A stretch of 64,000 nucleotides of DNA from Verrucomicrobiota bacterium (GCA_042565725.1 JBHORK010000001.1:4995-68994); one strand, 5' to 3'. Numbered from the stretch's first letter, positions 5,929 to 39,572 are shown. The notes: generated from the sequence alone by a model not told the origin. Numbers and translations are program-made.

Positions 5929-6092
5929 GTTTGTTGATTTCCTCTTCTGTTGTAATTTACAACGCAGTATTTGTCTGGTCAAGACAAACGAGCCCTGAGG
6001 AATTTGCAATGTAACCCGTCCTGAGGCGGGCAAGCGCAAATGCGAAGGGGAATAGGGGCGGAAACGAGAAGGTCTGAGAATTAGGTCCCGAC

Positions 6093-6118
6093 ACGAAATA
6101 CGCTTCACGAGATACGAG
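6093..6118. repeat. Copy of dispersed motif GTATCTCGTGAAGCGTATTTCGT (reverse orientation), about 165 bp upstream of the HK operon start
   Basis: acgaaatacgcttcacgagatacgag; the same 17-26-nt motif recurs at 11031-11075 (degenerate tandem), 37672-37707, 37978-38002 and 38899-38937. Confidence 0.7.
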
Positions 6119-6298
6119 TTAGAATTCGCGGGATTTAAACCTATTTCCAAGCCAGAGCGGAATAAGAGTGGTTAACGCAGTGATAACAAACAGCCATACT
6201 CCCGCCCAGATCAAACCCGAGTACAGTTGCGAAAGACTGATTTTGTTGGTGAAGTGCAAATGGGATACAAATCCGAAAGGCAATATTACTGCCAGCAT
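6119..6298 (-). CDS. Small hydrophobic membrane protein (59 aa), hypothetical
   Basis: MLAVILPFGFVSHLHFTNKISLSQLYSGLIWAGVWLFVITALTTLIPLWLG...; the longer ORF-track version runs into the repeat element and is unlikely. Confidence 0.3.
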   Translation of the reverse strand: MLAVILPFGFVSHLHFTNKISLSQLYSGLIWAGVWLFVITALTTLIPLWLGNRFKSREF

Positions 6299-6313
6299 GA
6301 AGCATAAACTAGT

Positions 6314-6568
6314 CTGAACATTGCACGAACAAAACAGAATGTTTAATAAAAAGGGAATAACCACAGGGCGATATAAAGATTTTTTGAAGAAACAACAAAA
6401 CACAAATTGTAATCTTAGTTTTTGAGAGAATATTCTGTTTTGTTCGCCCGAAGGGTGAGTTCACAGCACGTAATCGCCTTTGTTCTCAAGGGTAAAGCGG
6501 TATGCTATACAGCGTTACCCTTGACGCCGCGGCGCTTCCGCACTGTGAACTCATGCAATGATCAGGCT
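6314..6568. repeat. ~255-bp dispersed structured repeat, copy 1 (MITE or sRNA-like); second copy at 25087-25346
   Basis: About 90% identical to 25087-25346 by eye; internal inverted repeats cgaacaaaacagaat / attctgttttgttcg about 100 bp apart, and hairpin caagggtaa(a/c)gcggtatg(c/t)tatacagc(g/a)ttacccttg. Confidence 0.75.
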
Positions 6569-7899: not shown

Positions 7900-9369
7900 T
7901 TATTTTTGGCTAACGTTCTGATAACGAAGTTTGGGTACTCGGTAGCGTTCTGATAATCTTGCGTTGGCCTCAGCAAGTGTTTCTGTGTCTAGAACCAGAT
8001 CTACGCCGATCGACTTGAGTGTAAGCCGCTCAATGCTTCCATCACGGTCAACAATTCCGAAAACGTCCGACATGTTTTGTATCTTTTTGCCGTTGATATG
8101 TGTGATTATTGAGCTGTAAAAATACTGATAACCAATATTTATCGGGTCAGAGAGAACAGACGAAAGTATTACAATGCGATCTCCTGCAGCATTAAGGGAT
8201 TTTTTCCGCGTTAAATATAAATGCACAAGTTCAGAATCAGCTTTGCTGCGCCAGTTCTCTCCAAAAGACTTGAGGTATTTTCCTGTCAGCTCTCTTATTA
8301 CGAGTCCGCCTTCCACAAGATATTCCGGCTGTTTACCCTCGGTGTTGTCAGGGATAAAAGAGTCGGAATCTAGCAAATGGTCCAATTGTATTTTGATGTT
8401 CTGAATCTTTTTATTGCGCATAAGTTGAACGGATACCGTGTCGCCGGGTTTATGTCTGCCGTTAATAAGATATGTAAACATCAGCCTGCCGAACTTTTCG
8501 TCTTTGTAATAGCCAAGATTGTCAATTGCATGGCCATCCAGGCTGAGTATTACGTCAAGAGGTTTCAGCGACTCGCGTGCCCCGGTTTCGGGCAGACATG
8601 ACAGAACGAGTATGCCGACTTCGTCCTTTCCGACTCCAAAATACGACCGCTTAACGGGATCAATAAGAGTGGACCATGTGAAGCCTGCGGACGCAATTCC
8701 TTCATATGGTTTTTTTTCAGCGTCTTTTATAAAACGATTTAGAACACAGTAGGGCAGTACATCTCCCGTGCGTGTGCTTCGGTTATATCTGATTACAAGG
8801 CCTGCAAGCTTACTGTCATATATCACTGCCGCTCCCATGCCGTTGACGTTCAGGTCGGTAAGCACGCTGAATGTAAGAGAAACGTGTGGTGCTTTAGGCA
8901 GATATTTCATTGCAATCTGGAACATCTTTGCTTTTCCCTGCTGAATTTTGAAAGTCTCACCAAATTGTATTATTTCAACTTCACTCTCAGCTGGTACGTC
9001 TTGCGCCAGACTCAGCGGAGTAATCCATGGGGCTTCGTTTGTGTCGGTGATAGTAAGCAAAGCTAAATTAGACTGGTAGTCGCATAATTCCACCTTCGCG
9101 TTGATCTTTTTTCCCGAGCCGGACCTTCGAAGTTCCACAAGGGTGTGGTTGCGAATTATACTCTCTGTCGTAATAACCTGTGATTTGCTGATCGCTACAC
9201 CATAGCCGTATCTAACACACGGCTTCCATTTTTGCCATGGTTTAAAAGGATTAAATTCCTGATATGTGGCAACTACCTGTACAACACTCTTTTCAAAATC
9301 ATCTGTGTATGCGAACTGCGCTGAAATAAAAATTAACAATATCAGGATTTTTGAGGATGAAAGCTTCAT
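7900..9369 (-). CDS. Trypsin-like peptidase paralogue lacking the catalytic serine motif (likely pseudoprotease), secreted
   Basis: Signal peptide; same architecture as the upstream gene, but the GNSGGP position reads NGMGAAV (no Ser); the two ORFs overlap by 4 bp. Confidence 0.6.
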   Translation of the reverse strand: MKLSSSKILILLIFISAQFAYTDDFEKSVVQVVATYQEFNPFKPWQKWKPCVRYGYGVAISKSQVITTESIIRNHTLVELRRSGSGKKINAKVELCDYQSNLALLTITDTNEAPWITPLSLAQDVPAESEVEIIQFGETFKIQQGKAKMFQIAMKYLPKAPHVSLTFSVLTDLNVNGMGAAVIYDSKLAGLVIRYNRSTRTGDVLPYCVLNRFIKDAEKKPYEGIASAGFTWSTLIDPVKRSYFGVGKDEVGILVLSCLPETGARESLKPLDVILSLDGHAIDNLGYYKDEKFGRLMFTYLINGRHKPGDTVSVQLMRNKKIQNIKIQLDHLLDSDSFIPDNTEGKQPEYLVEGGLVIRELTGKYLKSFGENWRSKADSELVHLYLTRKKSLNAAGDRIVILSSVLSDPINIGYQYFYSSIITHINGKKIQNMSDVFGIVDRDGSIERLTLKSIGVDLVLDTETLAEANARLSERYRVPKLRYQNVSQK

Positions 9370-10889
9370 TGTTTGTCCTTTACGGGATGCTTAGGAAACA
9401 TGTCGTTAAAATATTCAGGAGCCGACAATCCGTAACTGGACATTATTTCACTTTCAACTTTTTTTGATGCCGTTGCGTCGAGAACAAGAACATCATCCAT
9501 TCCAGCGAAACGCATCACATGAAATCCGTTTTGCGGACTGTTGATTGCTTTTTTTATGTCCGCAATGTTACAGATATGAATGCCGTTAATCTCTGTTACA
9601 ATGCCATTAAAGAAATAATTGGCATATGTGTTTACTTTGTGAGGAAGACGTCGGATCAGCACTACGAATTCGTCTCGATCTTCGTAAAGCTTATGCGTTT
9701 TGGCATACTGTGAATAGTAGAGCAGCTGTTGGCTGTTGTTGCCGGGATTTCCTCTCAAAGTGTTTAGATATGCCCTGTTGAAAGGCGAGAATATAAGTCC
9801 GCCAACCATGAAATATTCTGGAAGTTCGTCGTATACACGCCTGAAAGCATATGGGTCTTTGGGATTGGTCAGCGGGACGGTGACTTCAATCTCCTTTTTG
9901 TTGCGCCATACCTTGAAAATCACTGATTCGCCCCATTGTTTTTGTTCAAGAAGCTCCTCGAAGCGGACATTATTTCCATTGAAATCAACTGTGCCGTCGT
10001 TTTCTATTATGTGCTGGTCAACGGAGAGTAAAACGTCTTTTACTTCCAGAAGGTTAACCGCGCTTCCGAAAGGATCAAGATAATATACGGCAACACCGGT
10101 CTTTGATGCCGGCAATCCAAGGCTTTTGTGGAGAGCAATGTTGTGTAATTCAATCCATGAAGCACCAAGCTCCGGGTAGCCGTTGTAATCACCATCTTTA
10201 ATATCCTCCAGGAAATGATTGATTACAGGGATTGGTATGGCGTATCCAATATTATCTGATTCAGCTAAACCCTGGAAGGCCAGGCCGACCACTTTGTCTT
10301 TGAAAATAATCGGACCTCCGCTGTTACCTGGATTGATGGCTGCGTCAACCTGTAGAACCAGGTGCTGGTCAATCCCGCTGTGTGAGTAAGTGCTGTAATC
10401 TATGCGTGACACGATACCCCTCGTTATTGAAAGACGGATACCTCCTCTGGGGTAGCCTAAGACCGTGACTTCATCATTCAAGCGCGGGAGTTGCTTCGCG
10501 AAAGTAACAGGACTGGTTCCTTTGAAGAACGATGGGTCGTCAACCGAAAGTATCGCCAGATCACAATCATGCCCGCTGAAACTGACTCGTGCTCTGTATT
10601 TTTTTGCGTCACCGTTTTTCTGGACCTGTAGAAATTTTACGTCGGACACAATATGTGCATTGGTTAAAATGCGGCGTTTATCAATGATGAAACCCGTGCC
10701 GTTTCCTTTTATCTGAAAGCCGCTTTGCCATGGCATGGAATAATCCGCCCGCTGGATCGTGGCGTATATTTTAACAACAGAATTACGCAGTGATTTTCGT
10801 CCGAATGCGGCATAAGCGTTTCCGGTGAATTCGGCTAAAACCGATAACAGCAAGAGAGATATCAGCCATTTTGCAGTTGATTTGTTCAT
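9366..10889 (-). CDS. Secreted trypsin-like serine protease (S1C/DegP-like catalytic domain plus C-terminal beta-rich/PDZ-like region)
   Basis: Signal peptide; catalytic His in ILTNAHIV, Asp in DCDLAIL, Ser in NPGNSGGPI. Confidence 0.8.
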   Translation of the reverse strand: MNKSTAKWLISLLLLSVLAEFTGNAYAAFGRKSLRNSVVKIYATIQRADYSMPWQSGFQIKGNGTGFIIDKRRILTNAHIVSDVKFLQVQKNGDAKKYRARVSFSGHDCDLAILSVDDPSFFKGTSPVTFAKQLPRLNDEVTVLGYPRGGIRLSITRGIVSRIDYSTYSHSGIDQHLVLQVDAAINPGNSGGPIIFKDKVVGLAFQGLAESDNIGYAIPIPVINHFLEDIKDGDYNGYPELGASWIELHNIALHKSLGLPASKTGVAVYYLDPFGSAVNLLEVKDVLLSVDQHIIENDGTVDFNGNNVRFEELLEQKQWGESVIFKVWRNKKEIEVTVPLTNPKDPYAFRRVYDELPEYFMVGGLIFSPFNRAYLNTLRGNPGNNSQQLLYYSQYAKTHKLYEDRDEFVVLIRRLPHKVNTYANYFFNGIVTEINGIHICNIADIKKAINSPQNGFHVMRFAGMDDVLVLDATASKKVESEIMSSYGLSAPEYFNDMFPKHPVKDKQ

Positions 10890-11231
10890 GCTTAGCTGGG
10901 CATACTACTTTTAATTGTGTGAAAAAGCACGATAAAAATCAGGAGCCAGGATTCAGGAATCAACAGCCTTCAGCCTAAACAACCTGATGATGCCGCACAA
11001 CCGTTAGACGAACAGTGCAGGATATTTGAATATCGAACGAAATACGAAATACGCTTAACGAAATACGCACTTATTATGAGTATTCAGGATAGAGATTATA
11101 TGAAGCCAGAGTATCGTCCGCGTTCTTGTAAAAAAGACTCTGTATCTTTAAAAAACCGGTTTCTTTTTCTTCTGTGGAGAATTAAACGATGGTTGCTTTC
11201 GGGCTTCAGTAGAGGGAAGTAACGAACGCTA

Positions 11232-11918: not shown

Positions 11919-11934
11919 TGGCACATAATCTGCT
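11919..11934 (+). promoter_or_regulatory. Sigma-54 (-24/-12) promoter TGGCAC-N5-CTGCT upstream of gspE1
   Basis: tggcacataatctgct: GG and GC separated by 10 nt, consensus TGGCAC-N5-TTGCW; about 48 bp upstream of the ATG at 11983. Confidence 0.65.
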
Positions 11935-16821: not shown

Positions 16822-18192
16822 ATGTCGAGCATATTACTTGTAGATGATGAATTAAGCATTTTGAGTGTGCTAAACACCTTGCTGAAAGCAGAAGGCTATG
16901 AAGTTGTTACTGCGCAAGGAGGGGATAAGGCCAAGGAAGTTCTTGAGAAACAAGAGTTTGATCTGATGCTTTCCGATATACGTATGGCTCCTGTGGATGG
17001 TATTCAGCTGCTCAAGTTTGTTCATGCCGAACATCCTGACATGGCCGTGATCATGCTGACGGCCTTCGGATCGGTCGAAACAGCAATTGAAGCTTTGAAA
17101 CTCGGTGCGTTTGATTACATCACCAAGCCTTTTAAGGTGGATGAACTTCTTATCACTGTGCAGAGAGCATTGGAATATAAGACTGCTCTCACCGAAAATG
17201 TTAGCCTCAAGAGTCAGCTTGGGGCGCGTTATGAGCTTGAGAAGATTGTCGCCGAAAGTCCGGCAATGCAGAATGTCTGCGAAATGATTAAGCGTGTGGC
17301 ACCTACTGACACAACGGTGCTGATTTACGGTGAAAGCGGTACAGGCAAAGAACTTATTGCCCAAGCTATTCATTCCAACAGCCGCAGGGCTGAAAAGAAT
17401 TTCCTGGCAGTTAACTGCGCGGCACTTCCGGAGGCATTGCTGGAATCTGAGATGTTTGGCCATGTTAAAGGCGCTTTTACGGGTGCAGCATCAAACAAAG
17501 AAGGATTGTTTGAGGCAGTAAAAGGCGGCACTATTCTTCTCGACGAAATAGGATCCATGCCCATGAGTATACAGGGTAAACTCCTGCGAGTCCTGCAGGA
17601 AAAGGAAATACGGCGTGTTGGAGGCAATGAACATATTTCTATAGACGCCCGCGTACTGGCGGCAACTAATTTCAATCTGGAAACACTCATGAAAGAGAAA
17701 AAATTCAGAGAAGACCTGTTTTACCGACTCAGTGTTATTCCTATTGAGGTTAAACCTCTCAGAGAAAGAAAGGAAGATATTCTGCCCCTTGTTTATCATG
17801 TCCTCCATGCGGAAACGCCGGAAGGACAACAGCCTCTTACGCTGGATCCTGAAGTGTGTTCAATCCTCGAGTCATATTCCTGGCCCGGCAATGTTCGTGA
17901 ACTGGAAAATGCAGTAAAACACGCCATGACTTTTGTTGAGGACAACAAAATCACAAAAGAAGTTCTGCCGCCCAAGATAGCTGCTACACCTGTCGCTGCG
18001 ACATCCTCTCCATCGCAAACCGATGTGCAAAGCGGACGGTGCAAATCTCTGAGAGCTTTCCTTCGTTCCAGGGAAAGAGAATATCTGGAGCAGGTTCTTT
18101 CTCATACTTCCGGTGATAAGGAAAAAGCCGCCGAAAAACTTAAAATAAGCTTATCCACTCTTTACCGTAAACTGCCCGAATCACAGGAATAA
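16822..18192 (+). CDS. Sigma-54-dependent response regulator (REC - AAA+ sigma54 activator - Fis-type HTH), PilR/NtrC-like
   Basis: REC domain with phospho-acceptor (LMLSDIRMAP); GESGTGKE Walker A; GAFTGA motif (HVKGAFTGA); C-terminal HTH. Confidence 0.9.
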   Translation: MSSILLVDDELSILSVLNTLLKAEGYEVVTAQGGDKAKEVLEKQEFDLMLSDIRMAPVDGIQLLKFVHAEHPDMAVIMLTAFGSVETAIEALKLGAFDYITKPFKVDELLITVQRALEYKTALTENVSLKSQLGARYELEKIVAESPAMQNVCEMIKRVAPTDTTVLIYGESGTGKELIAQAIHSNSRRAEKNFLAVNCAALPEALLESEMFGHVKGAFTGAASNKEGLFEAVKGGTILLDEIGSMPMSIQGKLLRVLQEKEIRRVGGNEHISIDARVLAATNFNLETLMKEKKFREDLFYRLSVIPIEVKPLRERKEDILPLVYHVLHAETPEGQQPLTLDPEVCSILESYSWPGNVRELENAVKHAMTFVEDNKITKEVLPPKIAATPVAATSSPSQTDVQSGRCKSLRAFLRSREREYLEQVLSHTSGDKEKAAEKLKISLSTLYRKLPESQE

Positions 18193-18403: not shown

Positions 18404-18420
18404 TGGCACGGGTACTGCTA
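18404..18420 (+). promoter_or_regulatory. Sigma-54 promoter TGGCAC-N5-CTGCT upstream of the pilin gene
   Basis: tggcacgggtactgcta; GG(18405-6)-N10-GC(18417-8); about 85 bp upstream of the ATG at 18505; the same -12 variant CTGCT as the gspE promoter. Confidence 0.7.
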
Positions 18421-18504: not shown

Positions 18505-18864
18505 ATGAAAAAGAAGAAATTAGGTTTCACTCTTGTTGAAATCATGATCGTTGTAGCGATTATCGGCCTTTTGGCTGCTATTGCTATTCCTTCATTTGTG
18601 AAGGCACGTAATACGTCTGTCCAGAATGCTTGTATAAACAACCTTCGTCAGGTTGATTCAGGAAAAGAACAGGCAGCTATGACATATAGATGGCCTGATG
18701 ATCAGTCGACCGACGCTGGTACGTACAGATCCAATGTGAACAGTTACATTAAGGGTGGTGAGCATAATTGCCCTGGTGATAATAGCACATACACCTATGG
18801 CAACATAGGCGTCAACCCTGTATGTTCGTTCAGCGGAACGTCTACATCGCACGTGCTTCAATAA
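18505..18864 (+). CDS. Prepilin-type N-terminal cleavage/methylation domain protein (type IV pilin/pseudopilin)
   Basis: KKLGFTLVEIMIVVAIIGLLAAIAIP class-III signal with G-F cleavage site and Glu at +5; RBS aaggagg. Confidence 0.9.
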   Translation: MKKKKLGFTLVEIMIVVAIIGLLAAIAIPSFVKARNTSVQNACINNLRQVDSGKEQAAMTYRWPDDQSTDAGTYRSNVNSYIKGGEHNCPGDNSTYTYGNIGVNPVCSFSGTSTSHVLQ

Positions 18865-18945: not shown

Positions 18946-20991
18946 CTATCTAATCGATGCAGATAATCGAAATGCCTTACCGGTGCGATAAAGATTAAGC
19001 CTCTTCTCAATCTCTATCCTCAATTCAATATCCTGTTCCGTTGCAAGGCGTAAAGCCTTTTCCCCTATTATAATGGCTCGCTCATATTCGCCAACCTCCG
19101 CCAGTACTGCTGCCTTAACATCCAGTATTCTCGCATTCTCTTCTACAGGGATTACATTTTCAATCTTGCCAATCAATTCAACTGCACGTCTGCCGTTTCT
19201 GTGCTCATCCATTGGGCATGTTGCCAATAACCAGGCAAGCTGTATTTTTGCGTCTATCGAAACGGGCCGAAACATTAATGCTTTCTCGTAATGCCCGATT
19301 GCCCTGGAATAATTCCCTTTAGACGCATTTAAAGCCGCTATACAGTAATGAGTTGTACCATGACGAGTTGTGCCGTCGCCCTGGTGCTCTTTAAGAGCTT
19401 CCGACCATTCTATTAAAGCTTCGTCCGGCCTACCCGTGTCTCGTAAAACTATTCCAAGATTGTTTTTGGCCTCAACATAGTTTGGCGCAATTCTTACTGC
19501 TTCACGGAACTCTTTCTCTGCATCGGTATATGCATTTTCCGTCACCCTTATTATGCCAATGGCATTTCTGGTCTTTGCGTATAAAGTGTGATGTACTCCC
19601 CGGCTTTCTTGATCAATGTTGTCAGGCAAAAGCACAAGAAGCCTGTTGAACAGATCTTCAGCTTCCTGGACAGAACCTTTCTTAGCCAATTCCAATCCCA
19701 GGGCAAAATACGGCCTGGGGTTTTGTGGTCGTACTCTTATTGTCTGCCGCCACAACGTTTCGGGTGTTTGGTAATCCATGTTTCTCTTTACTGTCAGGGT
19801 TATCATGACGAAACAAACTGCCAGAGGTAAAACGCTCCTGAATACAATACGTTTACTTGTGTCTTTCGCTACTAAACCGCCAAACAGTTTTTCTTGAATA
19901 TGATGCGTTGTTATGGTTATCAAAACTATTATTGCCGCCAGTGGAAGATACATTCTGTGCTCAAACGCCGCATCTCTGATCGGGACAAAACTTGAAGTCG
20001 GGGCCAGAATTATAAAAAACCACATGCCGGGAAAACCTGAAGGCAGACGTTTTATTGCCGCTATAACAGCAGTAATAAACAGTATGCTTATAAATACGAC
20101 GGCGGGCAGAACATCGCTTATACCTTCTGCAATCTCCCATCCGTAATCAATGCAAAGAGGGTTTGGGGATACCGATAACTTTAAATAATGAGCTATCACT
20201 TCAAACTGTGTGAAGAAATAATTCATGCTCAATGCATGTGAAGCAGTTTGCGTTCTTAAAGCAACCCCGGCATGACCTATGAACAGCCAAACAGATGCAG
20301 CAGCCACGATTGCTATACCTGTCAACAGCCACCATTTTCTGTATAATTGTTTGCGAAGCGAACCTGCCAGGAAAATGTGATCATATAGAAAAATAATAAC
20401 CGGGGCTGTCATCATAACTTCTTTTGTGCTTATACCGGCAATAAAGGCCAGGAAGGCAGTGGAATACCACAATGTTTTACGAGAAGATTCATGGGCTCTG
20501 ATTATCGAATAAAGCACAAAGAGATAAAACATCCCCATCATTGATTCACTGCGTTGGCATATATATGTTACGCTTTCTGTCTGCAGAGGATGTATAACCC
20601 AGATCACTGCTGACATGAAAGCCAACCAGGAGGCAGAAGCACGGTATTTAGATTGAAAATACGACAGGCACAATGTACGCCGTACCGTGCCATAAAGCAG
20701 TAATCCTGCAATCAAATGAATGATAATATTAACTAAGCGGTACCCAAGTATATTAAATCCACTAAGCGCAAAATTCAGTTTAAAACTTAATTCAGCAAGA
20801 AACCTTGGATGCCAGGTTAATGGCATTAAACGATCAATGTATCTATTCTCGGTTATGATTACACTGTCATCAAAAACAAAGGATTTATCGAAACTGTTGG
20901 CATATGCCAGAATTCCGACGACAGCAATGACAAATGGCAGATATTTTTCAAGCCTTTTCATGTTTACATGCTTCCATAACATATTTATCAT
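18946..20991 (-). CDS. TMTC/PMT_2-like GT-C family glycosyltransferase, multi-TM N-terminal domain with C-terminal TPR repeats
   Basis: N-terminal 400 aa with about 9 TM segments and an NSFDKSFVFDD loop motif typical of PMT/ArnT-like GT-C enzymes; C-terminal roughly 250 aa of TPR-like repeats. Confidence 0.6.
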   Translation of the reverse strand: MINMLWKHVNMKRLEKYLPFVIAVVGILAYANSFDKSFVFDDSVIITENRYIDRLMPLTWHPRFLAELSFKLNFALSGFNILGYRLVNIIIHLIAGLLLYGTVRRTLCLSYFQSKYRASASWLAFMSAVIWVIHPLQTESVTYICQRSESMMGMFYLFVLYSIIRAHESSRKTLWYSTAFLAFIAGISTKEVMMTAPVIIFLYDHIFLAGSLRKQLYRKWWLLTGIAIVAAASVWLFIGHAGVALRTQTASHALSMNYFFTQFEVIAHYLKLSVSPNPLCIDYGWEIAEGISDVLPAVVFISILFITAVIAAIKRLPSGFPGMWFFIILAPTSSFVPIRDAAFEHRMYLPLAAIIVLITITTHHIQEKLFGGLVAKDTSKRIVFRSVLPLAVCFVMITLTVKRNMDYQTPETLWRQTIRVRPQNPRPYFALGLELAKKGSVQEAEDLFNRLLVLLPDNIDQESRGVHHTLYAKTRNAIGIIRVTENAYTDAEKEFREAVRIAPNYVEAKNNLGIVLRDTGRPDEALIEWSEALKEHQGDGTTRHGTTHYCIAALNASKGNYSRAIGHYEKALMFRPVSIDAKIQLAWLLATCPMDEHRNGRRAVELIGKIENVIPVEENARILDVKAAVLAEVGEYERAIIIGEKALRLATEQDIELRIEIEKRLNLYRTGKAFRLSASIR

Positions 20992-21091: not shown

Positions 21092-21171
21092 TGGAGTACT
21101 GGAGTGCTGGAGTAATGATTAAATTAACAAAAGCTTTTTTTCCAATACTCCAATACTCCAGTACTCCATTA
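21092..21171. promoter_or_regulatory. Inverted arrays of the heptamer TGGAGTA / TACTCCA (3 copies each arm) in the divergent promoter region
   Basis: Left arm tggagtactggagtgctggagtaatg, right arm ccaatactccaatactccagtactccattac, separated by about 23 bp. Confidence 0.5.
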
Positions 21172-21301
21172 CTTCATGGGGTTAACAGATTTCTAGGCGT
21201 TTGATTTACATTGCTGTCATTAGTTAATTCAATAAGACAAATAGCTCTATAATTGTCCGAATATAATGCAAAAACAGTTCTACTAGTATATACTTCGTGT
21301 T

Positions 21302-23531: not shown

Positions 23532-23879
23532 GAGGAAATTTGAAATTGGAAATTTGGCAAAGAGCCAGAGGGCTATGTGATAGGGGTAGGTAGTTATTTA
23601 AATTAGCCTTTGTATGGTTGGGCTGGCTTCCGCCGGGCGGCGGATGTAAACCGCAGGACGCATTTCGTTTTCTGATCCGCCGCAGGTCGAGAAGGATTCG
23701 AAAATTGGATCAGCAGATTGCCGCAGGACCAAGGCGTCGAAGGTTGAGCTGGATACGTATCCGCGAGATCTTCGAGAACGATGGGCATGAGGTGATATGC
23801 GGGTCCGATTTTCGAACGAAATGCGTACTGCATATTAAGAAAAAGCACTTAAAATGGAATTTTTTAGAACCGAGAAACC

Positions 23880-36362: not shown

Positions 36363-37667
36363 TTATTTAGTCTGTTCAGTTTTCCAATCTAAAACAGGTG
36401 CGATTACACCCTGCCTTCCCTGAGAGATCTTAGATTCTACGCTTCCGGTATCTATAACCTCAAACATAAGAACACGAGGCAGCTCATCCAGGATACGAAC
36501 GTTGGGGATGCTGGAAGCCACGTCAATATAGTAACGGCCAGGGCGAAGGTATTCAGGCGGAATATGACATTGGGCAATATACCGTCCCGGTTCGCGCTTT
36601 GTTGTTATGGATGAAGGATTGTTGTCCACATCCGTGCTGGTGAAAACACAGTGCCCACTGCTATTCCAAAGTATAAATCCAATATTGGCACTTCGAAAAG
36701 GGTGCAGTATTTCATATTCAATTTCTAGATTGCATCCTTCAATCAGGTCAACTTGGGCTGTAATCTCACCCATTGGTTTGCGAACGCGGACACAACTGAA
36801 ACGGAAATCATCACTCAATTTATGCCGCCTTTGTGGGGCTGTTGCCTCTCCGCTTAAGGTGATATCTGCGTTAAGATAATGATCTACCACGCTTTTAATT
36901 TTGCCTGTCTTAACTATATTACCATTATCTAATAGAATTCCCCTTGAACATAAATTCAGAACCGTTGCCATGTTATGGCTTACGAATAATACTGTGCGGC
37001 CTTCTTTGGCAACATCATTCATCCTGCCCAGGCATTTCTTCTGAAACGCTGTATCGCCAACGGCCAGCACTTCGTCGACAAGAAGAATATCCGGCTCCAG
37101 ATGAGCGGCCACGGAAAAGGCCAGACGCACATACATCCCGCTTGAGTAACGTTTGACAGGTGTATCTATGAACTTCTCAATCTCTGCAAAGCTTACGATT
37201 TCATCAAACTTCTTTTCTATTTCCGCCTTGCGCATCCCCAGTATCGCGCCATTAAGAAAGATGTTTTCGCGGCCCGTCAGTTCCGGATGAAAACCCGTGC
37301 CCACTTCGAGAAGGGAACCGATACGCCCACGGATATCCGCCTCTCCCTCAGTTGGCGCGGTAATACGTGACAGAATCTTTAATAACGTAGATTTCCCTGC
37401 TCCGTTGCGGCCAATTATACCCAGCACTTCTCCTTCCTTTATATCCAGATTAATATCCCGCAGGGCCCATATATAACCAGAAGCAGTATTTGTCGGACTG
37501 TCATCCGTGCCGCCGCTTATCAGTGTGTGTGCGGCACGTTTCGCTTTTCGGCTGTAATGACGCCCCATGGCCATCAGGACTTCACGAAACGTACGGGAAA
37601 AATCAACTGTCTCGCCCAGTCGATATCGCTTTCCCAAACCTCTTATACTTATTGCAGTCTCACTCAT
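36363..37667 (-). CDS. wzt: Polysaccharide ABC exporter ATP-binding protein with C-terminal carbohydrate-binding extension (Wzt plus Wzt_C-like)
   Basis: Walker A GIIGRNGAGKSTLLKIL, ABC signature YSSGMYVRLAF, Walker B LLVDEVLAVGD; about 170-aa C-terminal beta-rich extension like Wzt_C of O-antigen exporters. Confidence 0.8.
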   Translation of the reverse strand: MSETAISIRGLGKRYRLGETVDFSRTFREVLMAMGRHYSRKAKRAAHTLISGGTDDSPTNTASGYIWALRDINLDIKEGEVLGIIGRNGAGKSTLLKILSRITAPTEGEADIRGRIGSLLEVGTGFHPELTGRENIFLNGAILGMRKAEIEKKFDEIVSFAEIEKFIDTPVKRYSSGMYVRLAFSVAAHLEPDILLVDEVLAVGDTAFQKKCLGRMNDVAKEGRTVLFVSHNMATVLNLCSRGILLDNGNIVKTGKIKSVVDHYLNADITLSGEATAPQRRHKLSDDFRFSCVRVRKPMGEITAQVDLIEGCNLEIEYEILHPFRSANIGFILWNSSGHCVFTSTDVDNNPSSITTKREPGRYIAQCHIPPEYLRPGRYYIDVASSIPNVRILDELPRVLMFEVIDTGSVESKISQGRQGVIAPVLDWKTEQTK

Positions 37668-37671
37668 AAAG

Positions 37672-37995
37672 TGTATCTCGTATTGCGTGAAGCGTATTTC
37701 GTATCTTGTTTTCCGCTTATTATAATTTCTTTATTAAATTTCTTGTCATTCGCGGTCGAAATCGGGATTGGGATCGCTATCGAGAAACAATATGGGACTT
37801 GGGTACGGGAAATGGGATGTTTGTCGTTTGAGAATAAGTGAAAGAACAATCTTCTTGTTATAAAACAGGGAAAATCGATTTCGATAGCGATAGCGATTTC
37901 GACGAGGTGTAACCATATGCCCAAATCCCTGAAGTTTCTTGTCTTAGTTTCTCCGCTTTTCATGTTTCCTTTTCACTCTTCACGAAATACGCTTC
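37672..37995. mobile_element. MITE-like ~325-bp structured element with perfect 17-bp terminal inverted repeats, inserted between wzt and wzm
   Basis: Left end cgtgaagcgtatttcgt, right end acgaaatacgcttcacg (exact reverse complement); nested internal inverted repeats gtcgaaatcg...atcgctatcga / tcgatagcgat...cgatttcgac; no ORF. Confidence 0.6.
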
Positions 37996-38000
37996 ACGTT

Positions 38001-38855
38001 TCAAACAATATCTGCAAAATACCGTTCTGTCTTTCTGAAATAATATAAGCCGAATCCCAGAAGACACATTGCGACAACAAATCCGGTGCCCATAAGAATC
38101 CATGGCGGCCCGACCGCGTGTTCCGCCGTCATCCTGTTGTGCATTAAACACCACCTGAATCCTTCAACAACTCCACCCATAGGGTTTAAACCATACAGGT
38201 ATTTCCATGCCCCCCAGGCTTTGGGTATCTTGCTGAAGGGAATTATTACCGAGCAGAACATCCAGATCTGAATCACAAATGGAATTACATACCTGATGTC
38301 ACGGTATTTTACGTTAAGCGCGGAAAATACAAACCCGGCACCAGCCGCAGTCGCAAAAGCAGTGATGATCAACAATGGCGCGAGAAAAACAGTCATTGCC
38401 GGCAGTGTCTTCAGGAACAACATGAAAAAGATTAGAACGCAAAATGAGAGCGCAAAATCAACAAGTGCGGCTATACATGCGCTTAGCGGCATGAAAAGGC
38501 GGGGCATATAGATTTTTGTGATCAGATTGGCTGAACCCACCAGCGAACTGCTTGCCATGCTTAGAGAAGTCGAGAAATACTGCCAGATTACCAGCCCCGA
38601 GAGATAAAAAAGAAAAGGATGCAGTCCGTCCGACGGCAGTTTCGCGACTCGCCCGAAAAGAAAGTAGAAGATAATAGCGGTTATTGATGGTACCAGTATA
38701 GACCAGGCGATACCAAGCAAGGTTTGTTTGTATTTTACCTTAATGTCACGCAATGTCAGGAAATACAGCAGATCCCTGTATCGCAGCATTTCATTGAAAT
38801 CCAGTGAGATCCAGCCTTTGGGCGGACGTATGCGCGTTATGGGCTTGGCTGTCAT
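38001..38855 (-). CDS. wzm: ABC-2 type polysaccharide exporter permease
   Basis: 284 aa, 6 TM segments, ABC-2 family pattern; adjacent to wzt. Confidence 0.8.
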   Translation of the reverse strand: MTAKPITRIRPPKGWISLDFNEMLRYRDLLYFLTLRDIKVKYKQTLLGIAWSILVPSITAIIFYFLFGRVAKLPSDGLHPFLFYLSGLVIWQYFSTSLSMASSSLVGSANLITKIYMPRLFMPLSACIAALVDFALSFCVLIFFMLFLKTLPAMTVFLAPLLIITAFATAAGAGFVFSALNVKYRDIRYVIPFVIQIWMFCSVIIPFSKIPKAWGAWKYLYGLNPMGGVVEGFRWCLMHNRMTAEHAVGPPWILMGTGFVVAMCLLGFGLYYFRKTERYFADIV

Positions 38856-38898
38856 AAGACAAGAATATGCAAGGTAATTAACAAAGTCAAAGCCAATA

Positions 38899-38937
38899 CG
38901 CGTATCTCGTGAAGCGTATTTTGTATCTCGTATATCG
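38899..38937. repeat. Copy of GTATCTCGTGAAGCGTATTT(T/C)GTATCTCG motif, about 45 bp upstream of the wzm start
   Basis: cgcgtatctcgtgaagcgtattttgtatctcgtatatcg. Confidence 0.65.
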
Positions 38938-38987
38938 CCGGCCTTTCCCCTTGTCAGGCACCTTTATATAAATTAAGGTTTAATAAC

Positions 38988-39572
38988 GTGAAAAAGAATA
39001 TATTACACAAATGTTTTTCGGGGCGAAGAACCCTTCTTCTTGTGATCGTGCTGGTTTGTTTTGCGCGGTCTTCTGTTTCTCAGGACACAAATAATCTTCA
39101 AGAAAACAAAGAGAACATAGCTGAGGACCTTAAGGTTAAGGATAAGCCGGACGAGAAAGAATCACAGAAGTCAAAACCCCAGGTTCAGGCAAGTGAGAGG
39201 TTATTTCAGATTGCTTTGGCATTGGAGAAAAAAGAAAACGAACTGACTGAAGCAAAAGCCGAGATTGAGAGGCTGAAAGAAATAATAATAAGAACACGTG
39301 AAACAAGTAGGCGTGAGCGGCTGCGTTTGTGTTACAACCTTGCTTATGTGTATCGGGCGGCAAAAGAATACAAAAAAGCCGAGGCCGAATACAGAAAAGC
39401 ACTGGCAATAAATCCGGATGATTCAGCGGTCCATTTCAATCTTGCCGTTCTTTATGACGACGATCTTAATGACGAAAAACAAGCTGTGAAACATTACAGG
39501 CGATTTCTTGATCTGGCCCCGGAAGACAAAGATGCCCCGCGCGTACGCGAATGGCTTATGGCAATTGAGTAA
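38988..39572 (+). CDS. Secreted TPR-repeat protein with coiled-coil segment
   Basis: Signal peptide; LCYNLAYVYRAAKEYKKAEAEYRKALAINPDD and HFNLAVLY TPR-like repeats. Confidence 0.6.
   Translation: MKKNILHKCFSGRRTLLLVIVLVCFARSSVSQDTNNLQENKENIAEDLKVKDKPDEKESQKSKPQVQASERLFQIALALEKKENELTEAKAEIERLKEIIIRTRETSRRERLRLCYNLAYVYRAAKEYKKAEAEYRKALAINPDDSAVHFNLAVLYDDDLNDEKQAVKHYRRFLDLAPEDKDAPRVREWLMAIE

What the first reader, a model, noticed from the sequence alone, without database searches (positions are those of the whole stretch)
37672..37995. MITE-like structured element between wzt and wzm whose terminal repeat motif is scattered across intergenic regions
The wzt-wzm spacer holds a ~325-bp non-coding element bounded by exact 17-bp inverted repeats: cgtgaagcgtatttcgt and acgaaatacgcttcacg. 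It also carries nested internal inverted repeats (gtcgaaatcg.../...cgatttcgac). The same 20-26-nt motif GTATCTCGTGAAGCGTATTTCGT recurs at 6093-6118 (HK operon promoter), 38899-38937 (45 bp upstream of wzm), as a degenerate tandem at 11031-11075, and degenerately near 23800. An insertion separating the two halves of an ABC exporter, starting 5 nt from the wzt start codon with no obvious SD, could affect wzt translation. Alternatively the motif is a regulator binding site co-opted at several promoters.
Basis: seen in the sequence. Interest (0 to 1): 0.65.

Follow-up and report, generated by a model that had tools for sequence, protein, structure and literature searches.

The report
Decayed four-helix-bundle gene cassette, heptad-repeat ends
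The extra 330 bases between the two halves of this sugar-polymer exporter are the decayed remains of a small insertion cassette, related to the "intervening sequences" of ribosomal RNA genes, whose inverted ends are arrays of 7-base repeats that also occur across several bacterial phyla.

Summary
An exact 17-bp inverted repeat bounds the 333-nt wzm-wzt spacer, and the motif occurs 5 times in the window (0.14 expected).

The motif is a tandem heptad array, (CGT-N4)n.

The spacer interior is a pseudogene of a PF05635/TIGR02436 "23S rRNA intervening-sequence / four-helix-bundle" protein (IVP). The N-terminus (KTRNFRDLGIW) and C-terminus (RMTRNLIKKL*) survive. The middle is deleted and frameshifted.

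Intact cassettes elsewhere have the same layout: host stop, CGT array, SD, IVP gene, ACG array, then the host ATG 0-11 nt later. I picked 78 IVP loci by protein homology alone:
- 61 have a CGT array upstream and 64 an ACG array downstream (tolerant count).
- By a strict count on 76 loci, 49 and 51 have arrays in this orientation, against 3 and 1 in the reverse.

A filled versus empty site pair shows gain or loss without a target-site duplication.

ORF-less array pairs and solo arrays are common in Nitrospirota and Planctomycetota. They show no promoter bias.

Verdict: this is not a classical MITE and not shown to be an operator. It is a decayed IVS-like cassette sitting in an mRNA operon, a new variant of a known kind. 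RNA processing, IVP binding to the arrays and the mobility mechanism are all inferred.

The parts
37672..37998 (-). The whole element: a decayed IVS-like cassette (heptad-array end, psi-IVP, heptad-array end) filling the wzm-wzt junction, co-oriented with the operon
   Evidence: The architecture is identical to intact cassettes in L030, L014 and L139-L218.
37975..37998 (-). 5' terminal array on the gene strand: CGTGAAG CGTATTT CGTGAAG (AGTGAAA). It starts 2 nt after the wzm stop codon (38001-38003).
   Evidence: The 17 nt at 37982-37998 are the exact complement of 37686-37702.
37672..37706 (-). 3' terminal array on the gene strand: (ACAAGAT) ACGAAAT ACGCTTC ACGCAAT ACGAGAT (ACA). It ends 5 nt before the wzt ATG (37667). 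No SD is present.
   Evidence: The same array-to-ATG spacing is seen at other host genes.
37720..37963 (-). Pseudogene of a PF05635/TIGR02436 four-helix-bundle (23S rRNA IVS) protein. The ATG is at 37963, preceded by AAAGGAAAC. The N-terminal part, about residues 3-65, spans 37945..37727. The C-terminal RPRMTRNLIKKL* is in another frame at about 37758..37720. About 40 codons are deleted internally.
   Evidence: - tblastn E 0.009
- blastx E 6e-5 for the N-terminal part, plus a colinear C-terminal hit
- the 83-IVP profile gives this segment as the top hit among 1474 six-frame segments of the window, E 0.023
- blastn matches to the 5' and 3' ends of IVP genes in many loci
- Pfam itself gives no hit
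37755..37903 (.). Inner hairpin. Inverted arrays of 6-nt units (TCGAAA TCGGGA TTGGGA TCGCTA TCGA / CGATTT CGATAG CGATAG CGATTT CGAC) lie inside the pseudogene.
   Evidence: Several intact IVP genes carry an 8-11-nt inverted repeat at the same relative positions, about nt 48-58 and 141-151 (GGTATAGAAAT / ATTTCTATACC).
38899..38937 (+). Solo heptad array (CGTATCT CGTGAAG CGTATTT TGTATCT CGTATAT) between the divergent wzm (ATG 38855) and TPR gene (GTG 38988)
   Evidence: It sits between a -35-like TTGACT (38890-38885, wzm side) and a TTGTCA that I read by eye on the TPR side. No IVP remnant is detectable.
6089..6122 (-). Solo heptad array (CGTATCT CGTGAAG CGTATTT CGTGTCG). It starts 2 nt after the stop of a 94-aa ORF (6119..6403) and lies about 160 nt upstream of the hybrid histidine kinase ATG (~5930).
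11033..11073 (-). Solo heptad array (CGTATTT CGTTAAG CGTATTT CGTATTT CGTTCGA), 144 nt upstream of the trypsin/PDZ protease gene 9366..10889(-)

Best explanation
The wzm-wzt spacer is a decayed copy of a small insertion cassette. This cassette type is the same kind of element as the ORF-bearing intervening sequences (IVS) of 23S rRNA genes, but here it sits inside a protein-coding operon.

An intact cassette is about 0.45-0.55 kb and reads, on the host gene strand:
1. the host upstream stop codon, often supplied by the first repeat unit;
2. a tandem array of about 5 heptads, CGT-N4;
3. an SD and the ATG of a ~120-aa four-helix-bundle protein (PF05635/TIGR02436, a homologue of the DGR protein Avd);
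4. the inverted array, ACG-N4;
5. the host start codon 0-11 nt later.

In this window the protein gene has lost its middle and is frameshifted. Both arrays survive. They include a perfect 17-bp complement that is predicted to pair in the transcript, which would bring the wzm stop and the wzt start to the foot of one stem.

Shown:
- the architecture;
- homology of the interior to IVP genes;
- the strong, oriented association of heptad arrays with IVP genes;
- co-orientation with host genes;
- presence/absence polymorphism between near-identical loci;
- greater complementarity between the two ends of one cassette than between ends of different cassettes.

Inferred by analogy with 23S IVS (PMC4990558):
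- the element is co-transcribed with wzm-wzt;
- the terminal stem is an RNase III-type processing site that would separate the two cistrons;
- wzt is translated from an SD-less leader made of the ACG array, as at many other host genes.

The three other motif sites in the window are solo arrays, either cassette ends without cargo or ORF-less derivatives. How the cassette moves is unknown. It encodes no recognisable transposase.
For: (1) Motif significance. The 17-bp repeat is exact and the arrays are far above chance.

(2) Intact cassettes in other phyla.
- L030 (Pirellulales): a PF05635 gene (E 1.5e-39) sits between convergent arrays, between V-ATPase B and D.
- L014 (Smithellaceae): the same arrangement. 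The two proteins are 67% identical across phyla.

(3) Homology of the spacer interior to IVP genes.
- N-terminus: TKTRNFRDLGIW against KIRNFRDLDVW.
- Colinear C-terminus: RMTRNLIKKL* against RMLRNLVKKLN*.
- The strand, the position and the SD-ATG distance from the CGT array all match intact cassettes.
- DNA-level matches exist to the 5' and 3' ends of IVP genes in more than 15 loci.

(4) An independent sample of 80 metagenome loci, chosen by IVP protein homology only.
- Strict count, 76 loci with both flanks: 49 have a CGT array within 160 nt upstream and 51 an ACG array downstream. In the reverse orientation the counts are 3 and 1.
- Tolerant count: 61/78 upstream and 64/78 downstream, with a modal length of 5 units.

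(5) Relation to the downstream host gene.
- 45 of 51 cassettes with an ACG array have a co-oriented host ORF starting within 40 nt; the commonest gap is 5 nt.
- The host genes are diverse: V-ATPase F/D/A/B, DnaJ, response regulators, YbgC, Dcd and others.

(6) Pairing of the two ends.
- Ends of one cassette pair better with each other than with ends of other cassettes: median -36.5 against -27.0 kcal/mol, P about 1e-6.
- The longest exact complementary run has a median of 13 nt against 8 nt.
- The window's stem has base-pair probability of at least 0.96.

(7) Gain or loss. L151 (filled) and L152/L164 (empty) have about 97-100% identical flanks. The cassette replaces 32 nt that include the host stop and start codons.

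(8) Normal spacing. wzm-wzt are 10-58 nt apart in relatives.

(9) The published analogue. The Coxiella IVS is 428-444 nt, has a 28-bp terminal inverted-repeat stem with the S23p ORF in the loop, and is cut by RNase III (PMC4990558).
Against: - Pfam and NCBIfam HMMs do not recognise the remnant. The statistical support for homology is moderate for each single piece (E 0.009-0.023) and becomes strong only when colinearity and context are added.
- None of 20 IVP loci tested lies in an rRNA gene, so the link to classical 23S IVS rests on the protein family and the architecture.
- The 17-bp stem is shorter than typical RNase III substrates of about 20 bp or more (from general knowledge). There are no transcript data.
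- Three of the five arrays in the window are solo, with no detectable IVP remnant. Their origin as cassette ends is assumed.
- There is no close relative of the source genome (next Wzt 62% identical), so no empty site exists for this particular insertion.
Confidence: 0.8

Rival explanations
1. The heptad arrays are operator sites for a DNA-binding regulator that polymerises on tandem 7-bp units, for example a ribbon-helix-helix protein like omega of pSM19035. On this view the spacer merely carries two such sites, and the solo arrays control the kinase, protease, wzm and TPR promoters.
For: - All solo arrays lie 45-165 nt upstream of gene starts.
- The 38899-38937 array sits between a -35-like box on the wzm side and a TTGTCA that I read by eye on the TPR side.
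- Tandem heptads in direct and inverted orientation are the known operator format of omega-type RHH repressors (from memory, not tested).
- The CGT triplet is invariant while the 4-nt spacers vary.
Against: - Across 174 flanking genes the arrays are upstream of a start as often as downstream of a stop, 87:87.
- They occur between convergent genes and between nearly every gene of some operons (L061).
- They flank IVP genes in one fixed orientation.
- No candidate regulator was identified, and there is no sigma-54 promoter next to the arrays.
Confidence: 0.1
2. It is a classical MITE: a deletion derivative of a transposase-encoding insertion sequence, mobilised in trans, with the heptad arrays serving as transposase-binding terminal inverted repeats.
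For: - It has terminal inverted repeats, is small, and lies in an intergenic position.
- Its ends are dispersed.
- Presence/absence polymorphism is seen elsewhere.
- Close IVP homologues sit mostly on very short contigs, as multicopy repeats do.
Against: - The interior derives from a 120-aa four-helix-bundle gene, not a transposase.
- No target-site duplication is seen in the window or in the filled/empty pair, where 32 nt of host sequence are replaced instead.
- The full element is single-copy in the 64-kb window.
- Insertions are co-oriented with host genes and abut start codons, which is unusual for cut-and-paste MITEs.
Confidence: 0.07
3. The arrays are REP/STRR-like intergenic repeats, imperfect hairpins that act as mRNA stabilisers or terminators. 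They arise and spread independently of IVP genes, and the IVP pseudogene lying between two of them is incidental.
For: - Most arrays found by the motif scan have no IVP gene within 8 kb. They form short CGT-array / loop / ACG-array hairpins in Nitrospirota, up to 14 arrays in 8 kb.
- Other short-period arrays exist in this window (octads at 21093-21173) and in relatives' wzm-wzt spacers.
- Cyanobacterial STRR heptanucleotide repeats are a precedent (from memory; the term is used in papers listed).
Against: - The oriented association with IVP genes (49 and 51 of 76, against 3 and 1) is far too strong to be incidental.
- Repeat vocabulary, and even period, change with the IVP clade.
- The window's arrangement matches intact cassettes unit for unit.
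- This rival is better seen as describing ORF-less derivatives of the same element family.
Confidence: 0.12

Closest known systems
ORF-bearing intervening sequences (IVS) of 23S rRNA genes (Leptospira, Coxiella burnetii; S23p ORF, PF05635)
   Same: - Size of a few hundred nt.
- Terminal inverted repeats that pair into a stem enclosing the element.
- A PF05635/TIGR02436 four-helix-bundle ORF in the loop.
- Regarded as a selfish, possibly mobile element with no identified mobility function (PMC4990558).
- The ORF tends to decay.
   Different: - It sits in an mRNA operon junction (wzm-wzt), not in helix 25/45 of 23S rRNA. None of 20 related loci tested is in rRNA.
- The ends are tandem heptad arrays (CGT-N4), not a simple inverted repeat.
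- The cassette abuts, and can supply, the host stop and start codons.
- RNase III cleavage is untested here.
MITEs (miniature inverted-repeat transposable elements)
   Same: Short, non-autonomous, with terminal inverted repeats, intergenic, and with dispersed related ends.
   Different: - No target-site duplication.
- The parent encodes no transposase, only a 120-aa Avd-like protein.
- Insertions are co-oriented with host genes.
REP/BIME elements of enterobacteria and cyanobacterial STRR heptanucleotide repeats
   Same: - ORF-less array pairs are abundant intergenic imperfect palindromes, including inside operons.
- Like STRR, they are tandem 7-nt units.
   Different: - The sequence differs: there is no GTAG head, and the units are not CCCCAGT-type.
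- The same unit vocabulary is shared across phyla.
- They are linked to a protein-coding cassette.
- No RAYT was examined.
Ring-protein / repeated-triplet RNA recognition (TRAP with GAG/UAG repeats), and omega-type RHH repressors on heptad DNA repeats
   Same: - An invariant triplet separated by variable spacers, in tandem.
- The modal number of triplets next to IVP genes is 5.
- The two solved PF05635 structures each hold 5 chains, and one is described as an assembly of five four-helix bundles (title cited).
   Different: This is purely an analogy. No binding of IVP to the arrays has been shown. ORF-less arrays have 3-5 units with no clear mode at 5.

Membership tests
23S rRNA IVS-type element with S23p/PF05635 ORF | Terminal inverted repeats that pair into a stem enclosing the element | tested here: met
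   - Exact 17-nt complement 37686-37702 / 37982-37998.
- Duplex energy -29.1 kcal/mol; pair probabilities 0.96-1.0 in the 394-nt transcript model.
23S rRNA IVS-type element with S23p/PF05635 ORF | Interior derived from a PF05635/TIGR02436 four-helix-bundle gene | tested here: met
   - N-terminal (residues ~3-65) and C-terminal (last 12 residues plus stop) remnants are colinear, on the right strand, and at the right distance from the arrays.
- blastn matches to the 5' and 3' ends of IVP genes in many loci.
23S rRNA IVS-type element with S23p/PF05635 ORF | Intact, recognisable PF05635 ORF | tested here: not met
   - The 99-aa ORF gives no Pfam or NCBIfam hit.
- About 40 codons are missing and the C-terminus is in another frame.
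- It is a pseudogene.
23S rRNA IVS-type element with S23p/PF05635 ORF | Located in helix 25 or 45 of a 23S rRNA gene | tested here: not met
   - It lies between wzm and wzt.
- No Rfam family reaches threshold in the window.
- 20 related IVP loci hold no rRNA, only 2 tRNAs.
23S rRNA IVS-type element with S23p/PF05635 ORF | Excised from the transcript by RNase III cutting in the terminal stem | not testable with these tools
MITE | Terminal inverted repeats | tested here: met
MITE | Target-site duplication flanking the element | tested here: not met
   - The flanks ...TTGTTTGAAA|CGTG and ...ACACTTT|ATGAGT share no repeat.
- In the L151/L152 filled/empty pair the cassette replaces 32 nt, with no duplication.
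MITE | Deletion derivative of a transposase-encoding autonomous element | tested here: not met
   Full-length relatives encode only a ~120-aa TIGR02436 / Avd-like protein.
MITE | Many near-identical copies of the whole element in the genome | tested here: inconclusive
   The interior is single-copy within the 64-kb window.
Operator array of a heptad-binding (RHH-type) regulator | Sites concentrated in promoter regions of a regulon | tested here: not met
   - 87 arrays upstream of starts against 87 downstream of stops.
- Arrays also lie between convergent genes.
Operator array of a heptad-binding (RHH-type) regulator | Cognate DNA-binding regulator | not tested
   No candidate was identified. 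The NtrC-type regulator in the window (16822..18192) has no sigma-54 promoter next to any array.
REP/BIME | Conserved GTAG-type head, GC-rich imperfect palindrome, associated RAYT transposase | tested here: not met
   The units are CGT-N4 heptads with no GTAG head. RAYT presence was not examined.
Cyanobacterial STRR repeats | Tandem heptanucleotide units in intergenic DNA of heterocystous cyanobacteria (CCCCAGT, TTGGTCA, CAACAGT; from memory) | tested here: not met
   The period and tandem organisation match, but the unit sequences and the taxa differ.

The most novel reading that the evidence does not exclude
PF05635 'four-helix-bundle' genes together with their inverted short-period repeat arrays form a widespread, previously unrecognised class of operon-invading cassettes, found in Planctomycetota, Verrucomicrobiota, Desulfobacterota and others.

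On this reading:
- The pentameric protein recognises the roughly five CGU/ACG triplets of its own ends, in a TRAP-like wrap or an omega-like filament.
- The cassette supplies the stop codon of the upstream host gene and the start context of the downstream one.
- ORF-less derivatives of the cassette account for the abundant REP/STRR-like heptad hairpins of Nitrospirota and other phyla.

The wzm-wzt element would then be a fossil of such an event, and wzt would now depend on the array as its translation-initiation region.
Probability: 0.3. Interest if true: 0.85.

Novelty: new variant of a known kind. Interest (0 to 1): 0.66.

Why it matters
PF05635/TIGR02436 proteins are very common 'hypothetical' genes. 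They are known only as the ORF of some 23S rRNA intervening sequences, as relatives of the DGR protein Avd, and as unexplained guests in cas loci (PMC3936711).

Three findings would give this family a concrete genetic identity:
- The genes travel as cassettes bounded by inverted heptad arrays.
- The cassettes insert co-directionally at gene boundaries inside housekeeping operons.
- They decay into repeat-only relics.

This would also explain a class of cross-phylum intergenic repeats. It suggests a testable protein-repeat recognition (pentamer against about 5 triplets). It raises the question of how downstream genes such as wzt are translated from an SD-less repeat leader.

For annotation, it warns that such spacers are relics and not regulatory RNAs or MITEs.

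Tried and rejected
- **Rfam.** There were no hits at gathering thresholds in the window or in array-rich loci. The permissive search of 37600-39000 gave only a chance-level nhaA-I match. No known RNA family is present.
- **Sigma-54 enhancer idea.** An NtrC-type regulator is nearby, but no -24/-12 promoter lies next to any array.
- **The 99-aa spacer ORF as a real gene.** It has no family hit and no similarity to the 99-aa ORF at the same junction in L117. It is explained as a pseudogene.
- **Strand asymmetry.** I suspected purine-rich spacers on both arms in the mRNA sense. This is rejected: the 3' arm spacers mirror the 5' arm overall.
- **'ACG array followed by a start codon' enrichment (23 against 8 of 135).** The control is unfair for convergent pairs, so I replaced it with the IVP-anchored test.
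- **IVP remnants at the three solo arrays and at the octad pair.** None is significant.
- **Literature.** Searches for the repeat sequences gave no paper. 'Heptamer repeat' plus Nitrospira gave none. A 10-mer search returned only U6 primer hits. Ralph & McClelland 1993 (PMC47033) is not held.
- **Exact-protein look-up of Wzt.** Not on record. No close relative of the source genome exists in the protein database: the next Wzt is 62% identical.
- **Viral contigs.** 15 of 18 motif hits carry arrays, but none has an IVP gene nearby. This was not pursued.
- **'Five units' rule in ORF-less arrays.** Not clear-cut: they have 3-5 units, with a mode of 4 among arrays not containing the search seed.

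Full report
**1. Checking the observation**

On the minus strand, wzt (36363..37667; ABC_tran + Wzt_C) and wzm (38001..38855; ABC2_membrane) are separated by 333 nt.

The exact 17-nt inverted repeat CGTGAAGCGTATTTCGT lies at 37686-37702(+) and 37982-37998(-). The nested inner repeat lies at 37755-37783 / 37875-37903.

The 17-mer with at most one mismatch occurs five times in the window: at 6093, 11044, 37686, 37982 and 38908. Shuffles give 0.14. The copy claimed near 23800 is not supported.

Set in register, every copy is a tandem heptad array with an invariant CGT and a variable 4-nt part, for example CGTATCT CGTGAAG CGTATTT. The window has five runs of at least 3 units against 0.22 in shuffles, and all five are intergenic.

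**2. The motif outside the window**

I scanned one genome per species for CGTKAAGCGTATTTYGT. By my arithmetic a few hundred chance hits are expected in the whole collection.

Sixty-nine of the 116 loci carry longer or additional arrays:
- 42 are Nitrospirota.
- 14 are Planctomycetota.
- 13 are from Armatimonadota, Desulfobacterota, Latescibacterota, Omnitrophota, Kiritimatiellia, Anaerolineae, Cyanobacteriota and Gammaproteobacteria.

The 47 loci without extra arrays are mostly from unrelated taxa, with the match apparently in coding sequence.

The unit vocabulary is small: CGTGAAG, CGTATCT, CGTATTT, CGTCGTT, CGTGAAA, CGTCGCT.

In Nitrospirota the usual form is CGT-array, short loop, ACG-array, and the two arrays always converge. 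The CGT/ACG triplets are in register but the variable parts are only partly complementary. One 8-kb locus holds up to 14 arrays.

These arrays lie in tandem, divergent and convergent intergenic regions. Flanking genes split 87 'array upstream of the start' to 87 'array downstream of the stop'. This argues against a promoter or operator element as the general explanation.

No Rfam family matches. No paper in the library contains the repeat sequences.

**3. What the arrays belong to**

In the Pirellulales locus L030, two convergent arrays bracket a 120-aa gene that lies between V-ATPase subunits B and D. Pfam calls this gene 23S_rRNA_IVP (PF05635, E 1.5e-39). NCBIfam calls it a 'four helix bundle protein' (TIGR02436), with a weaker match to the DGR protein Avd.

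The Smithellaceae locus L014 has the same arrangement, and its protein is 67% identical.

Searching all held DNA with that protein also hit the window spacer at 37945..37727(-). The details:
- The 99-aa spacer ORF begins MKSGETKTRNFRDLGIW, against MNAKIRNFRDLDVW in the intact protein.
- A second frame encodes RPRMTRNLIKKL-stop, against the family's C-terminus ESRMLRNLVKKLN-stop.
- A profile built from 83 IVPs ranks this segment first among 1474 six-frame segments of the window, E 0.023.
- At the DNA level, 37913-37954 matches the 5' ends and 37719-37752 the 3' ends of IVP genes in many loci.

The spacer interior is therefore an IVP pseudogene with an internal deletion of about 40 codons and a frameshift. 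Pfam does not recognise it.

Several intact IVP genes carry an 8-11-nt inverted repeat at the equivalent positions.

**4. An independent test of the association**

Eighty metagenome loci were collected by IVP protein homology alone, at 61-84% identity.

| Measure | Upstream CGT array | Downstream ACG array | Source |
|---|---|---|---|
| Strict count, 76 loci with both flanks | 49 | 51 | |
| Same, reverse orientation | 3 | 1 | |
| Both arrays present (strict) | 36 | | |
| Tolerant count, 78 loci | 61 | 64 | |
| Loci with exactly 5 units (the mode) | 29 of 61 | 33 of 64 | |

The two ends of one cassette are more complementary to each other than to ends of other cassettes. Median duplex energy is -36.5 against -27.0 kcal/mol (Mann-Whitney P about 1e-6). 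The median longest exact complementary run is 13 nt against 8 nt.

The vocabulary follows the IVP clade: GAAG/ATCT in most clades, ATTG/GATG/ATCG in another, ATTC in a third. A more distant IVP in L140 is flanked by 8-nt units.

**5. Relation to host genes**

Read on the host strand, a cassette is: upstream host gene, CGT array, SD, IVP, ACG array, host ATG.
- The host stop codon often lies in the first unit, for example the TGA of CGTGAAG.
- Of 51 cassettes with an ACG array, 45 are followed within 40 nt by a co-oriented host ORF. The commonest gap is 5 nt, and there is frequently no SD.
- Host genes are diverse housekeeping genes: V-ATPase F, D, A/B, DnaJ, response regulators, YbgC-type thioesterases, Dcd and others.
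- Solo ACG arrays abut true start codons in several Planctomycetota loci.

The window follows this plan exactly: wzm stop, 2 nt, CGT array, AAAGGAAAC-ATG psi-IVP, ACG array, 5 nt, wzt ATG.

**6. Evidence of gain or loss**

L151 and L152/L164 are V-ATPase loci with about 97-100% identical flanks. L151 carries a cassette of roughly 520 nt between subunits F and A, where L152/L164 have only 32 nt.

The cassette replaces the host stop codon, the 13-nt spacer and the first codons. There is no target-site duplication.

In the nearest Wzt relatives (54-62% identity) wzm and wzt are 10, 50 and 58 nt apart. One relative carries a different insertion, three small genes including a TumE-family gene. No close relative of the source organism exists; it is an NCBI 'Verrucomicrobiota bacterium' MAG. 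This particular insertion therefore cannot be dated.

**7. How it most likely works**

Shown:
- what the element is;
- its architecture and orientation;
- that its ends pair. The 17-bp stem has pair probabilities of at least 0.96 in a 394-nt transcript model, and the duplex energy is -29.1 kcal/mol.

Inferred from the closest characterised relatives: the Coxiella 23S rRNA IVS is 428-444 nt, has a 28-bp terminal stem with the S23p ORF in the loop, and is cut in the stem by RNase III (PMC4990558). By analogy:
- The element is co-transcribed with wzm-wzt.
- Its stem may be a processing site that uncouples the two cistrons.
- wzt is translated from the SD-less array leader.

A weak sigma-70-like match inside the element (ATGACA-16-AATTAT, 37749-37722) could also drive wzt. 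The mobility mechanism is unknown.

A speculative point: both solved PF05635 structures contain five chains, and one was published as an assembly of five four-helix bundles (title cited). This equals the modal number of triplets next to IVP genes. ORF-less arrays show no such mode.

**8. Comparison with known families**

- **ORF-bearing 23S IVS.** The element shares the terminal stem, the cargo family and the size, but not the rRNA location.
- **MITE.** It fails the tests for a target-site duplication and for a transposase-encoding parent.
- **REP/STRR repeats.** It resembles them only in the behaviour of the ORF-less derivatives.

IVP genes scattered inside cas loci have been reported without explanation (PMC3936711). 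I found no description of heptad-array-bounded IVP cassettes in operons.

I rate the finding a new variant of a known kind. The window's copy is a fossil, but it led to a well-supported general pattern.

Noticed in passing
window 21093-21173: There are convergent arrays of 8-nt units (GTACTGGA GTGCTGGA GTAATGA ... and, on the other strand, GTAATGGA GTACTGGA GTATTGGA GTATTGGA) around a 24-nt AT-rich loop. They lie in the divergent region between the 681-aa TPR gene (18946..20991 -) and a glycosyltransferase gene (21302 +). The architecture matches the heptad pairs but the vocabulary and period differ. No IVP remnant was detected.
   Followed up: partly
window 18404-18419 and 18505..18864(+); 11919-11934: A sigma-54-type promoter match (TGGCACGGGTACTGCT) precedes a type IV pilin-like ORF (MKKKKLGFTLVEIMIVVAIIGLL...). 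It lies just downstream of an NtrC-family enhancer-binding response regulator (16822..18192). A second match (TGGCACATAATCTGCT) precedes two tandem PilB-like ATPase genes and pilC. This looks like a PilR-type arrangement.
   Followed up: partly
L117:3170-3985: In the closest Wzt relative (62% identity) the wzm-wzt junction holds three small genes of 40, 99 and 128 aa; the last is PF20126 TumE. They follow a run of ~7-nt periodic units (TTCGGAA TTCGAAA TCCGAAT). The junction seems to be a recurrent landing site.
   Followed up: partly
L118:2943-3000: The 58-nt wzm-wzt spacer of another relative is itself made of heptads with a different vocabulary (GGTGCAC GGTGCAA CGTACAC GGTGCAA).
   Followed up: no
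L151:2228-2745 vs L152/L164:2228-2260: This is a filled/empty pair with near-identical flanks. A cassette of about 520 nt replaces 32 nt that include the host stop and start codons, changing the last three and the second residues of the flanking V-ATPase proteins. There is no target-site duplication.
   Followed up: yes
L140:2240-2690: A second, more distant IVP gene (47% identity) in the same V-ATPase operon is flanked by 8-nt repeat arrays (AGTGAATG... upstream, ACGCATAA... downstream). The repeat period and motif therefore change with the protein clade.
   Followed up: partly
L061 (Nitrospirales NPIRA01), whole 8-kb locus: Fourteen heptad arrays lie between almost every gene of a cluster of pilin-like (N_methyl) genes. 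L103 shows the same between motB, cheZ-like and cheA genes.
   Followed up: partly
L121-L138 (IMG/VR contigs): Fifteen of 18 viral-contig hits to the motif carry genuine arrays, mostly tight convergent pairs. No IVP gene is detectable in the held flanks.
   Followed up: partly
protein clusters P0121-P0240: Most close homologues of the L030 IVP sit on contigs shorter than 2 kb. This is the pattern expected when a multicopy repeat breaks metagenome assemblies.
   Followed up: no
window 38862-38890(-) and 38950-38978(+): A sigma-70-like box for wzm (TTGACT-17-TATTCT) ends only 7 nt before its ATG. On the other strand, TTGTCA-17-TAAGGT (my own reading of the sequence; not reported by the promoter scan) ends about 10 nt before the GTG of the TPR gene. 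Both genes may therefore be leaderless or nearly so.
   Followed up: no
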